A DNA stretch of 64,000 nt from an uncultured Acidobacteriota bacterium. GTDB taxonomy: Bacteria > Acidobacteriota > Terriglobia > UBA7540. The position numbers were made by a program, and so were the translations under genes. The notes below the pieces were generated by a model. It made no database searches, was not told the origin of the DNA, and saw nothing but the letters and a program-made list of their open reading frames with translations. The DNA is taken from contig CAWDSK010000003.1 of the NCBI GenBank assembly GCA_963804995.1, positions 1,280,001 through 1,344,000 on the forward strand, given 5' to 3'. Shown in pieces: positions 3,070 to 60,365 of the stretch. Within the stretch, counting starts at the first letter, position 1. Every line of letters begins with the position of its first letter.

Positions 3070-3337
3070 TCTGTTCCCTGTTCCCTATTCCCTGTTACCT
3101 GCACTTCCGTTCCCTGTTCCCTGTCACCTGTTCCCTGTTGCCTGTTCCCTAGTCCTTCCGCTCCTCGCTGGTGACTGTCCTGCTGTTCCCTGTAACCTGT
3201 TCCCTGTTCCCTGTACTTCCGTTCCCTATTCCCTATTCCCTAGTCCCTGTTCCCTAGTCCTTCAGCTCCTCGCTGGTGACTGTCCTGCTGTTCCCTGTAA
3301 CCTGTTCCCTGTTACCTGCACTTCCGTTCCCTAGTCC
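3070..3337 (+). repeat. Degenerate heptamer array (CTGTTCC/CTATTCC/CTGTAAC) with a ~65 bp higher-order duplication
   Basis: Directly visible; CTGTTCCCTAGTCCTTC.GCTCCTCGCTGGTGACTGTCCTGCTGTTCCCTGTAACCTGTTCCCTGTT at ~3142 and ~3247. Confidence 0.9.
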
Positions 3338-3685
3338 TTCCGCTCGTCGCTACCACGCTTCACCGCCTTCCGTCGTCAAGAACATCAGCAGAAATCGGCG
3401 CCTCGGTGATGGTCTGCGGATGACCGCAAGAAGAATCTTAGCGCGCCAGCTTGCATGATGACCCCGGCCCGTCCGTAAACAATATGCTGTGGGTAAGGGA
3501 CTATGGCGCTGCTGCTGCCTCCATGCTCGCGCCGTGGCGAGGCACTTCCGCGGCAAGGCGACTTGCGGCCATGTGGTTACAGGCTGCGGAAGGTAGTTCC
3601 CCTTCTTCGCGCTACCCCCCAACGTTGAGTGGTCAATCTGACTGTTTTTTGTCTATAGCGACCGACTGGGAGGGGTCAAATCTTT

Positions 3686-47085: not shown

Positions 47086-47135
47086 GAGCCATATTGTGCC
47101 AGCGCCGCCGCCCGGTGCCACAAGCGTTCGTAGCG

Positions 47136-49048
47136 GTTGCGGTAGGGATACCGGTTACCCGGTACCCCCCGCACGGATCCGTACGTGCGCTGGTTAGCGC
47201 ATACGGCTCTTATCTCGGATGTGTGGCGGCGAACCGTTGGGATGGCCAAGGATGCACAACGTGCGGAGCAGGCAACCAGCAGGCCGCAAGCTTCCCCAGT
47301 CGGTCCCAGTTGAGGCGGTGGCGTTGACTGCGTTGACGCAGTTGTGTTCGCCACAGTCGGGTCAACCGTTCCCGAAAGATTCGCAGGCGGTCGAGGTTTC
47401 CCGGTACCGCGTGATAGTTGAAGTAGCCTTGCACGACCGACCGGAGCCATTTACCCGTATCCGCGATGGGATCGTGCCGACGCTGCCGGAGTTGTTGCTT
47501 GAGTTCCTGCAACTTCCCCCGCAGGCGCTTGCTGATCGTCTTCCGCTTCACGGTAAATTGCCCCCTCCGGTTCTTCCCGCTGATATGCGTGAAGCCCAGA
47601 AAGTCGAACGTCTCCGGCTTACCTTCTCCTCTCCGTTTCCGGTAAAGTTCGGCAAACGGCCCGAACTCGATCCGGCGCGTTTTGTCAGGATGCAGTTCCA
47701 ATCCAAACTTCCCCACCCGCTCCCGGAAATCCTCCAGAAAGCGGTCGGCTTCCGTCTGCGATTGGAATCCAAGGACCGTATCGTCGGCATACCGCACCAC
47801 GACCACGTCTCCCCGGGCGTGCTTCTTGCGCCACGCCTGCACCCACAGGTCAAAGACGTAGTGCAGATAGATATTCGCCAGCAGGGGCGAGACCACCGCC
47901 CCTTGTGGCGTACCCATCTCCGTCTCCGACCATTCGCCTTCCTCCCTCACCCCGGCTTTCAGCCATTTCTGGATGAGCCGGAGAATCCGGGGGTCGGCGA
48001 CGCGATGCTGCACGAACTTGAGCATCCATTCGTGGGATATCGAATCGAAAAATCCACGAATGTCCGCGTCAAGAACGTAGTTCACGTGCTTCACCGTGAG
48101 CGCGTACGAGAGCGCGTCCAGCGCTTGATGCTGGCTGCATCCCGGTCGAAAGCCATACGAGAAGCCCAGAAAGTCTTCCTCGTAAATCGCCTTGAGGATG
48201 GTGACCACGGCCTGTTGGACGATCTTGTCCTCCAGTGCCGCAACCCCCAACGGACGTTGCCGCCCGTCGCCTTTCGGGATATACGCCCTTCGCGAGGGCT
48301 TCGCTCGGAATGCTCCACGGTGGACCCGGCTGTGCAGATCGACGAGTCGACCTTCCAGCCCGCTTTCATACTCCTGCCACGTCATGCCGTCTACTCCCGG
48401 TGCAGCTTTTCGCTTCAAGGCGTAAAAGCTTTCCCGCAGCAGATCGACCGTTAAGTGGTGGAGCAAGGCCGTGAACTTCATCTCCCTGTGTTCCTTCGCG
48501 GCTTTCCGCACACCCGCGAGTCCCTGGGACACGCGTGCCCCGCTCTGTGTCGGGTGCGTGTTAGGCCAACGGGTGTTCTCCTTGATCAGCGGCCTTCCCT
48601 CCTCATTCTCCGCCAACGGCTTCCCGTCTTTGTTCAAATGATTCATCGGTACTGTTCCGCTGTCCGACTCCTCGAAAGCGTGCAGGCGGGCTGTACGGCC
48701 ATCGCCTTTTCCCGCCGTCCGGCCACGATCTACGGCGGCCGGCGCCTCCGAGGTCTCCCGGTTCTCGTGCAGAAAGTGTCTAGGCGTGTCTGGGGTCTAC
48801 GACTACGCAGGACTGTGCCGGAACTCGCGTTGGCGTCCCGGCCTCATGTTGCCTTCCGTTTAGTCTGAAAACGTCGGCGTCCTGATTGGACATTTTCGAA
48901 GCTCAATACCCAGCCCACCTATTCCCCTGTTTACGCTTCACCGTGCGCCTCACGACGCCCAGCGCAAAACTCGGGGCCGAGTGGATCGCTACTCCTTCCT
49001 CGTGAGAAATTTTCATTCTCTGCTTTCTGCCGGTTTATCCCGGCGCAC
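47136..49048 (-). mobile_element. Complete group II intron (IIB-type, probably bacterial class E)
   Basis: 5' GTGCG at 49048; DV GAGCCGTATGCG..CGCACGTACGGATC with AGC triad; DVI ending CCCTACCGCAAC at 47136; joined exons restore a REP. Confidence 0.93.
47210..48646 (-). CDS. ltrA: Group II intron reverse transcriptase/maturase (no endonuclease domain)
   Basis: AAPGVDG, RPLG, SYGFRPG, DADIRGFFD, GTPQG, RYADD, FDFLGFTH, maturase NYHAV. Confidence 0.96.
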   Translation of the reverse strand: MNHLNKDGKPLAENEEGRPLIKENTRWPNTHPTQSGARVSQGLAGVRKAAKEHREMKFTALLHHLTVDLLRESFYALKRKAAPGVDGMTWQEYESGLEGRLVDLHSRVHRGAFRAKPSRRAYIPKGDGRQRPLGVAALEDKIVQQAVVTILKAIYEEDFLGFSYGFRPGCSQHQALDALSYALTVKHVNYVLDADIRGFFDSISHEWMLKFVQHRVADPRILRLIQKWLKAGVREEGEWSETEMGTPQGAVVSPLLANIYLHYVFDLWVQAWRKKHARGDVVVVRYADDTVLGFQSQTEADRFLEDFRERVGKFGLELHPDKTRRIEFGPFAELYRKRRGEGKPETFDFLGFTHISGKNRRGQFTVKRKTISKRLRGKLQELKQQLRQRRHDPIADTGKWLRSVVQGYFNYHAVPGNLDRLRIFRERLTRLWRTQLRQRSQRHRLNWDRLGKLAACWLPAPHVVHPWPSQRFAATHPR

Positions 49049-49240
49049 CAGACCTCCGCCGTTGAGGTCTGCGGTTCTTCCTGCGCATTGTCAACGAAAG
49101 TATCGTGGCGAAGAGGCGAGCGTGACGGGACCGCCTCGGTTTGTGATTCGTGGGTTTTGCAAACTAAGAACCGCGGACCCCAAAAACGGGGGACCGCGCT
49201 ACAAAACATGGCTGGGCTCGCTCGGTGACAGCCGGCCCCG
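49049..49240 (+). repeat. ~190 bp composite REP element family A, copy interrupted by the intron
   Basis: Direct repeat of 50387-50578; its missing GTAGCG head lies at 47130-47135. Confidence 0.9.
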
Positions 49241-49253
49241 CATGAGCTTTGTT

Positions 49254-49466
49254 CCCCGCAGGGGATAGATGGAATAGCCGGGGGCAACGCCCCCGGAAAG
49301 AGCGGCACCCGAGACGTTCGACCCTGAAAGGGTCGATTCCATCCGCTGTCACGCCTCACGTGCGTCCCCCACCCGAAGTTAATGCGACCCCTTCAGGGTC
49401 GACGTGTCGAGCGGGGCGCCATCCGGGGGTGTTGCCCCCGGCTATTTTCTTGTGCCCTTGCAGGGC
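49254..49466. repeat. Long nested palindrome (REPIN-like), family C
   Basis: AATAGCCGGGGGCAACGCCCCCGGA / TCCGGGGGTGTTGCCCCCGGCTATT and TCGACCCTGAAAGGGTCG / CGACCCCTTCAGGGTCGA arms. Confidence 0.8.
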
Positions 49467-49630
49467 GCGAAGAGTCCCCAATACGTCTCGCTCGCCGATA
49501 GGATGTTACAGTGCATTTTTATCAAATTAAGACATCAGAGTCTGACAGGCACAGACTCTGTTACCTGCCGCGTCCGCCTCCGTTGCGGCGATCCTCAACA
49601 AGCGAATGGTTGTGCGAATGTTGGACCAAA

Positions 49631-50380: not shown

Positions 50381-50578
50381 GTAGCGCAGACCTCCGCCGT
50401 TGAGGTCTGCGGTTCTTCCTGTGCCATTGGAACGAAGGTGTCGTGCGGAAGAAGCAAGTATGGCAGGGACGCCTGTGTTTGAGATTTGTAGATTCTTCAA
50501 ACTAAGAACCGCGGACCCCAAACACGGGGGACCGCGCTACAAGACACGGCTGGGCTCGCTCGGCGCCAGCCAGCCCCG
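50381..50578 (+). repeat. ~200 bp composite GTAG REP element family A, intact copy
   Basis: GTAGCGCAGACCTCCGCCGTTGAGGTCTGCGG ... CCGCGGACCCCAAACACGGGGGACCGCGCTAC. Confidence 0.9.
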
Positions 50579-51348: not shown

Positions 51349-51388
51349 GTGCGCCGGGATAAACCCGCCTGAAAGAGAGGATGAAAGA
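51349..51388 (+). mobile_element. 5' fragment of a group II intron related to 47136-49048
   Basis: GTGCGCCGGGATAAACC (17 nt identical to the intact intron 5' end) followed by GAAAG.AGAG.ATGAAA. Confidence 0.65.
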
Positions 51389-51393
51389 GCCGG

Positions 51394-51468
51394 ATCGGGA
51401 TAGGGGGAGCGGTCGCCCGCTCACCCCTCCCACACCACTGTACGTACGGAGCGCGTATACGGCGGTTC
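51394..51468 (-). mobile_element. Orphan DV-DVI of a group IIC intron
   Basis: GAACCGCCGTATACG..CGTACGTACAGTGGTGTGGGAGGGG...CCCCTATCCCGAT (CGC triad, short DV, AT end). Confidence 0.85.
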
Positions 51469-51582
51469 GGCGGGTTAGGCTAAGAACCGGCGGTGCCCCG
51501 TCTCATTAGATACTGCTCCGCCACCGAAAGAACCCCAGCGCTACAGCCAAAGCGTTGTCCAAAAATTTCGTGGACACTGCGT

Positions 51583-59958: not shown

Positions 59959-60365
59959 CATTACCTCCCGGCTACCCGCTAGCAGAAGGGTAGAGGTCAG
60001 GCAAGTCAGCATCCCCGGGCTGCTCAAAGAGGGGTATCAGTGGGCATGACGGGGCTGGCGCAGACTTCCGTTTTTTGAAGTCTGCGATCCCGGAGGGAGT
60101 GAAATATTGAGATGATCCGCTTGGCAACGACGCCTCAAGTAGTTGGCGCATGGGATGCACTGGCCGCCGGGCGGGGAAGTAAGTTCCTACGGAATCGCAG
60201 ACTGCCAACTGCCGCAGTCTGCGCCAGCCTACCAGTTCTGCCTAGCGGTCGGCGAGATTACTCTTGACGAAAAGGGGCCTCGCGCTACAATGGCCCACCG
60301 CGCGCCGGCCTTTTTCTGCCAGCCGGCGAAAAGATAACCTCACGATTCGGAGGGCCCACACAGCC

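What the first reader, a model, noticed from the sequence alone, without database searches (positions are those of the whole stretch)
47130..49075. Group II intron programmed to home into a REP repeat
Seen: removing 47136-49048 joins ...GCAGACCTCAACGGCGGAGGTCTG|CGCTAC, identical to the intact GTAG-REP at 50381-50410. The intron has a hairpin CGTTT-TCAGACT-AAACG (48873-48857) directly before GGAAGGCAAC, the usual EBS1 position; loop CAGACU pairs with the exon end GGUCUG (5 Watson-Crick + 1 G-U). Unoccupied candidate sites exist at 50386/7, ~60060-60086 (AGTCTG|CG, perfect match) and 21679/80. Known: IIC introns target terminator/attC hairpins and some IS110 elements target REPs. Inference: an En-minus IIB intron that uses a high-copy REP family as a safe harbour; I do not recall this being well described.
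Basis: partly seen in the sequence, partly recalled or inferred. Interest (0 to 1): 0.8.

Follow-up and report, generated by a model that had tools for sequence, protein, structure and literature searches.

The report
Group II intron homing into REPs
A self-splicing mobile intron has copied itself about forty times in this soil-type bacterium, each time into the same spot of a short palindromic repeat spread by another mobile system, and a distant relative does the same in a different repeat, so such repeats are a natural landing site for these introns.

Summary
Confirmed and extended. Window 47136-49048 (-) is an endonuclease-less group II intron, most likely class E, with 40 near-identical copies in the genome. 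All 38 copies with a readable 5' flank and all 39 with a 3' flank sit at one position of one REP family. That family flanks two RAYT transposase genes, and each has lost one REP to the intron. EBS1 CAGACU lies in the Rfam EBS1 loop and covaries with the target across 43 related EBS1 stem-loops; EBS2 and EBS3 were also found. Copies favour the G-rich strand, 32 of 130 REPs against 5 of 150, as in RmInt1-type fork homing. A 53%-identical intron fills another REP in 18 of 18 copies and does not form one clade with this one. The mechanism looks like ordinary base-pair homing onto a high-copy target; reading of the hairpin itself is not shown. Ten literature searches found no description. This scan already reported it twice from this genome and noted similar cases in other genomes.

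The parts
47136..49048 (-). Group II intron, 1913 nt; one of 40 genomic copies over 99.6% identical
47210..48646 (-). Intron-encoded protein, 478 aa, RT (YADD) plus maturase, no endonuclease domain
   Evidence: RVT_1 only in Pfam; TIGR04416 342.5 bits, cut-off 300
48793..49013 (-). Ribozyme domain I region, Rfam group-II-D1D4-6
   Evidence: 173 bits, cut-off 49
47136..47211 (-). Domains V and VI with a bulged A in domain VI
   Evidence: RF00029 39.2 bits, just under the cut-off of 40; fold with DNA parameters
48862..48867 (-). EBS1 (CAGACU) in the loop of the 48857-48873 hairpin
48888..48892 (-). EBS2 (UGUCC), pairs with target positions -9 to -13
   Evidence: occupancy 29 of 125 against 8 of 155; covariation 2.92 against 1.50 pairs
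48800..48800 (-). EBS3 (G), pairs with the +1 C of the 3' exon
   Evidence: read by eye in the listing: G with +1 C, U with +1 A, A with +1 T, C with +1 G, with a few wobbles and one exception (L016)
49049..49073 (-). 5' exon: hairpin part of the split REP; IBS1 at 49049-49054, IBS2 at 49057-49061
47130..47135 (-). 3' exon: CGCTAC, the GTAG end of the split REP; IBS3 at 47135
49159..49202 (+). Inverted partner REP of the same doublet (REPIN-like)
   Evidence: inverted pair I7 and direct repeat D3
50381..50540 (.). Intact, empty twin doublet; empty target between 50387 and 50386 on the - strand
60053..60229 (.). Empty doublet of the GCTG subfamily; candidate site 60061/60060 on the - strand

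Best explanation
This is an active or recently active endonuclease-less, IIB-like (class E) group II intron whose homing site happens to be a RAYT-associated REP. The spliced intron RNA with its RT pairs EBS1 with -6..-1, EBS2 loosely with -13..-9 and EBS3 with +1 of the REP (shown by covariation and occupancy). It reverse-splices into single-stranded lagging-strand template at the fork and primes on the nascent strand (inferred from strand bias and RmInt1). Extra specificity probably comes from the protein reading REP bases outside the pairings, such as +2..+5 (inferred from RmInt1/RmInt2). With about 280 mostly intergenic targets, the intron has expanded to 40 copies. Insertion separates the GTAG/GCTG end from the hairpin, which probably disables that REP for its RAYT (inferred; REP anatomy recalled, not from a call).
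For: 38 of 38 5' flanks end in GTC[T/C]G and 39 of 39 3' flanks begin CGC[C/T]A. REPs with T at -2 (pairs with EBS1) are occupied 33 of 162, those with C 4 of 118, p=2e-5; a sister intron in G005 has EBS1 CGGACU and C at -2 in 6 of 6 copies. Across 43 distinct EBS1 stem-loops, cognate pairing averages 5.49 of 6 against 2.98 for shuffled partners. G-rich strand 32 of 130 against 5 of 150, p=9e-8; 17 of 18 in G058. No bias by neighbouring gene direction. ORF intact in 37 of 38 copies, mean 3.5 differences between copies. Both IBS1 and most of IBS2 lie inside the hairpin, so it must be opened for pairing. Two of 3 G026 sister copies lack the full REP, and a G005 sister with the same EBS1 sits in a REP in only 1 of 4 distinct copies.
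Against: The three pairings alone do not explain the specificity: 0 of 95 non-REP sites on the favoured strand with IBS1, IBS3 and at least 4 IBS2 pairs are occupied (0 of 23 intergenic), against 17 of 32 REP sites. Sequence and hairpin cannot be separated here: 224 of 245 sites with the extended sequence signature also form the hairpin. GC skew is weak and no origin was located, so 'lagging-strand template' rests on skew; with a local 150-kb window the bias falls to 26 of 124 against 11 of 156. No splicing or mobility was observed.
Confidence: 0.75

Rival explanations
1. Structure-assisted targeting: the RNP recognises the folded REP hairpin on single-stranded DNA, for example EBS2 nucleating on the loop and stem top before EBS1 invades the stem. 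This would be a fourth target specificity beside plain homing, terminators and attC.
For: All 37 scored copies have a stem of 7 bp or more; 0 of 80 sites with the right 3' exon but no hairpin are occupied. Several related introns also end their 5' exon in the 3' arm of a palindrome: G058 18 of 18, L050, L051, L029.
Against: The far arm of the same REPs offers a hairpin with IBS1 and IBS3 and is never used, 0 of 176 with T at -2, though most of those sites also have a poor IBS2. Only 4 hairpin-less sites carry the full sequence signature, too few to test. Most relatives target sites without a strong hairpin.
Confidence: 0.17
2. Survivor bias: the intron inserts more widely but only REP insertions persist.
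For: Most matching non-REP sites lie in genes, 72 of 95.
Against: 23 matching intergenic non-REP sites on the favoured strand are all empty. The copies are very young (mean 3.5 differences) and have single-base-exact junctions.
Confidence: 0.05
3. Passenger model: the intron entered one REP once and was spread by RAYT or by recombination together with the REP; or the copies are an assembly artefact.
For: 27 of 36 pairs of shared polymorphic sites fail the four-gamete test, so copies have exchanged sequence or were mixed in assembly. Two tandem pairs lie at contig ends.
Against: Copies sit in both REP subfamilies (GTAG and GCTG) with many loop variants that match the empty REP population; flanks beyond the REP mostly differ; occupancy tracks EBS pairing and strand.
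Confidence: 0.03

Closest known systems
Bacterial class E (IIE) group II introns, e.g. S.me.I4 (PMC5894124 passages; PMC3753933 parts 1-2 of 7)
   Same: No endonuclease domain, IIB-like RNA with EBS1-3. The IEP is 57% identical to the disrupted intron on pRmeGR4b, which I take to be S.me.I4, against 35% to the other intron RT on that plasmid.
   Different: None of the passages read gives a REP target or a 40-copy burst. EBS2 was dispensable for IIE splicing in vitro, while here IBS2 pairing predicts occupancy. The domain V loop folds as 4 nt, not 5.
RmInt1 and RmInt2 of Sinorhizobium meliloti (class D; PMC4615759 and PMC5894124 passages)
   Same: En-less homing by EBS1-3 plus protein-read distal bases (-20..+5), bias to the lagging-strand template, multi-copy target belonging to another mobile element; RmInt2 uses the inverted repeats of ISRm17 with relaxed EBS2.
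   Different: Their targets are insertion sequences, with 7-10 intron copies; here the target is a 280-copy extragenic palindrome of a RAYT system, and the protein class differs.
Class C (IIC) introns at terminators and attC sites (PMC4424553 and PMC7923331 passages)
   Same: A recurring intergenic hairpin family serves as a genome-wide target.
   Different: IIC has a 3-4 bp EBS1, no EBS2, and the stem-loop lies upstream of IBS1. Here EBS1 is 6 bp, EBS2 covaries and the binding sites lie inside the hairpin.
REP-targeting insertion sequences (PMC1525189, listing and one table passage)
   Same: Mobile elements using REPs as targets.
   Different: DNA transposases, not RNA-guided reverse splicing. 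That table lists a Pseudomonas putida group II intron beside REPs in only 2 of 9 copies.

Membership tests
Group II intron | GUGYG...AY ends, domains I, V, VI, RT/maturase ORF | tested here: met
Group II intron | Self-splicing and retrohoming activity | not testable with these tools
   RNA contigs held only relatives and no exon-exon joint among the 15 of 17 joints shown
IIB-like intron | EBS1, EBS2 and EBS3 pairings | tested here: met
Class E IEP lineage | No endonuclease domain | tested here: met
Class E IEP lineage | IEP groups with a named class E protein rather than class D | tested here: met
   57% against 35%; tree. One reference only, identified by plasmid and disruption from PMC5894124; no class F/G reference included
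Class E RNA | 5-nt loop in domain V (PMC3753933) | tested here: not met
   folds with a 4-nt loop AACC
Class E RNA | alpha-prime in a terminal stem-loop and an extra bulge in Id3 | not tested
   alpha-prime was not assigned
Class C hairpin-targeting intron | Short EBS1, no EBS2, stem-loop upstream of IBS1 | tested here: not met
   6-bp EBS1 and covarying EBS2; IBS1 inside the stem
REP element (target) | Short high-copy extragenic palindrome with a conserved tetranucleotide at its foot | tested here: met
   280 copies, 263 intergenic, GTAG or GCTG end; definition of the tetranucleotide recalled
REP element (target) | Flanks a REP-associated tyrosine transposase | tested here: met
   two genes over the NF047646 cut-off (111.9 and 117 bits, cut-off 80), both flanked by this family
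REP element (target) | Bound and cut by the RAYT | not testable with these tools
   needs biochemistry

The most novel reading that the evidence does not exclude
Class E introns of Acidobacteriota have more than once re-tuned their exon-binding loops to the host's own RAYT-spread REP family and recognise the folded REP on single-stranded DNA. That would be a fourth natural target specificity and a three-level parasitism in which RAYT supplies landing sites and the intron disables them, including the REPs beside the RAYT genes.
Probability: 0.2. Interest if true: 0.82.

Novelty: new variant of a known kind. Interest (0 to 1): 0.62.

Why it matters
A 2015 review lists three target specificities for bacterial group II introns: homing sites, terminators and attC (PMC4424553). 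A RAYT-associated REP used in every copy, by two lineages that do not form one clade, adds a route to high copy number outside class C and links two mobile systems that act on single-stranded DNA. The genome is also a natural target library: 280 REP variants with known occupancy give recognition rules for class E, whose mobility I found no test of in the papers read, and show a role for EBS2 in homing where splicing did not need it. Forty near-identical 1.9-kb copies are also substrates for rearrangement.

Tried and rejected
RNA evidence: 24 RNA runs held at most 0.19 of the words; four were laid as contigs, showed only relatives and no exon-exon joint among the joints shown; no evidence either way. 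The CGCCG stretch just before the EBS1 stem looked like EBS2 but is conserved in relatives with unrelated targets, so it was rejected in favour of UGUCC. No link between occupancy and neighbouring gene direction or doublet status. Single distal positions inside favoured REPs gave no firm signal (best -18 C, p=0.034 uncorrected, 8 tests). REP targeting is not general in the clade: multi-copy relatives in G346, G218 and the G026 66% group use non-hairpin sites; 11 of 300 sampled phylum genomes had a close relative. In one search, 43 loci could not be resolved automatically and were left out; one more had too short a flank. One search used 18 of the proteins. Literature searches: (20 of 31 listed, none read from that list); none listed a paper on group II introns homing into REPs. 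The library lacks most subscription papers, and no supplements were read, so intron lists there could hold such cases.

Full report
Observation. The intron runs from 49048 to 47136 on the - strand, 1913 nt, starting GTGCG and ending AAC. Removing it restores a sequence identical to the empty repeat at 50381-50410. It encodes a 478-aa RT/maturase with no endonuclease domain. Rfam RF02005 matches domain I at 173 bits and puts UCAGACU in the terminal loop where EBS1 lies.

All copies use one site. The genome holds 40 copies over 99.6% identical: 38 full, two cut by contig ends. All 38 with at least 34 nt of 5' flank end in GTC[T/C]G, and all 39 with a 3' flank begin CGC[C/T]A. In the intron-free genome there are 5,170 RGTCYG|C sites. 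Occupied are 37 of 280 with a hairpin and CGCYA, 0 of 452 with a hairpin only, 0 of 80 with CGCYA only and 0 of 4,358 others. One full copy at a contig end had too little flank to score, and the class was defined after seeing the flanks. Two tandem pairs at contig ends may not be independent events. The ORF is intact in 37 of 38 copies, copies differ by 3.5 bases on average, and EBS1 and EBS2 are the same in all 38.

The target is a REP. Read on the other strand it is GTAG-CG or GCTG-GCG followed by a 10-bp hairpin, often in inverted doublets, and 263 of 280 are intergenic by my crude gene caller. Two genes pass the curated cut-off of the REP-associated tyrosine transposase model. One is flanked by the GTAG subfamily, the other by an inverted pair of the GCTG subfamily, and in both cases one flanking REP carries the intron.

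The pairings are real. Within the REPs, T at -2 gives 33 of 162 occupied and C gives 4 of 118 (p=2e-5). In G005 a 92%-identical intron has EBS1 CGGACU, and all 6 copies examined sit in the same REP family with C at -2. Over 96 loci with 43 distinct EBS1 stem-loops, cognate targets give 5.49 of 6 Watson-Crick pairs (38 of 43 with at least 5) against 2.98 for shuffled partners. Kin are not independent and the splice site was chosen for best pairing, so the gap is somewhat inflated. EBS2 (UGUCC, 48892-48888) pairs with -9..-13: at least 4 pairs gives 29 of 125 occupied against 8 of 155, and 2.92 against 1.50 pairs across 37 lineages, with 0 of 2,000 shuffles reaching it. EBS3 at 48800 follows the +1 base in the same listing.

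Strand. Occupied REPs lie on the G-rich strand: 32 of 130 against 5 of 150 by contig skew; on C3, C4 and C6, 22 of 70 against 1 of 89. Taking the G-rich strand as the leading-strand sequence (established knowledge), the intron enters the lagging-strand template, the preference described for RmInt1 (PMC5894124). Skew is weak here and no origin was mapped. On the favoured strand of the five contigs with clear skew, 23 of 52 REPs with T at -2 are filled.

What the pairings do not explain. On that strand, 95 non-REP sites have IBS1, IBS3 and at least 4 IBS2 pairs; none is used, including 23 intergenic ones, against 17 of 32 REP sites (p=1e-5). Something more is read. RmInt1 and RmInt2 proteins read distal exon bases (PMC4615759), and +2 to +5 are nearly invariant here, so protein contacts are the simplest answer. 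The hairpin could also matter, but IBS1 lies in its stem, the far arm is never used (0 of 176), and sister introns also occur at sites without an intact REP. The genome cannot separate the two, since 224 of 245 sites with the extended signature fold.

Relatives. The same REP position is used in G005, in G026 (1 of 3 copies in a complete REP, 2 of 3 with the hairpin) and in L084, a record titled Candidatus Angelobacter. Relatives are nearly all titled Acidobacteriota, so the host is probably one too (inference). In G058, another family, a 53%-identical intron sits at the end of a different palindrome in 18 of 18 copies, with EBS1 GCGGGC matching perfectly. That repeat has 591 copies and flanks a RAYT over the cut-off; 17 of 18 copies lie on the G-rich strand by skew from 20 sampled windows. 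The tree places lineages with other targets between the two, and an AU test rejects one clade (p=0.003, 18 proteins, G058 on a long branch). Independent gain is the simplest reading; an ancestral habit with many losses is not excluded. Other branches use AT-rich repeats or non-hairpin sites.

Class. The protein is 57% identical to the disrupted intron on pRmeGR4b and 35% to the other intron RT there; PMC5894124 says this plasmid holds the disrupted class E S.me.I4 and one RmInt1. The domain V loop folds as 4 nt rather than the 5 nt given for IIE, so RNA-level membership is not complete.

Known work. Papers seen: PMC3753933 (parts 1-2 of 7), PMC3552965 (parts 1-2 of 4), and term passages of PMC4424553, PMC5894124, PMC4615759, PMC7923331, PMC8919778, PMC1525189, PMC2936281 and bioRxiv 10.64898/2026.09.22.753630. 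PMC8919778 notes class E expansions in some genomes but has no occurrence of 'repeat' or 'palindrom'. Ten searches found no report of REP homing. The scan's own notes hold two reports on other copies in this genome and six similar cases elsewhere; they are not independent support.

Verdict. A real, well-supported and apparently unpublished target choice built on a known mechanism: new variant of a known kind, interest 0.62.

Noticed in passing
window 51349-51490: A 5' stub of a sister intron (target ending GGGTAGCCA, as in L017 and L079) is followed directly by domains V-VI of a different group II intron on the - strand (RF00029 weak hit, 51394-51467): a decayed nested pair.
   Followed up: partly
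window 49247-49472: A second inverted repeat doublet next to the intron's REP; one arm gives a sub-threshold hit to Rfam Acido-Lenti-1 (29.8 bits, cut-off 37), which suggests that family may overlap a REP-like repeat.
   Followed up: no
G000 C1, C2, C5, C6, C8: At least five more 5' stubs of sister introns, each with the target type seen for full-length relatives in other genomes: traces of earlier invasions by differently targeted introns.
   Followed up: partly
L046, L047, L050, L052, L051, L054-L058, L022, L026: Several relatives start with GAGCG, GAAAGCG or GATAGCG instead of GUGYG; the boundary is fixed by EBS1 pairing and copy comparison.
   Followed up: partly
L087-L154 group (Acidobacteriaceae records): A clade whose targets share a motif like AAATCGCCATTACA|CTCA across many genomes; what this site is was not determined.
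   Followed up: no
L016, L062, L085, L086, L100; L022, L024, L038: Sister introns target an AT-rich dispersed repeat and a GGTGTCAGG palindrome, the latter in both orientations; neither repeat was counted or tied to a RAYT.
   Followed up: no
G000 intron copies: Nine shared polymorphic sites occur in 27 haplotypes and 27 of 36 site pairs fail the four-gamete test: gene conversion, template switching or assembly mixing.
   Followed up: partly
L225 and L233 (G338:C13:1-6223): Two head-to-tail intron copies with no exon between them.
   Followed up: no
window 3071-3365: A low-complexity array of CTGTTCC-like heptamers.
   Followed up: no
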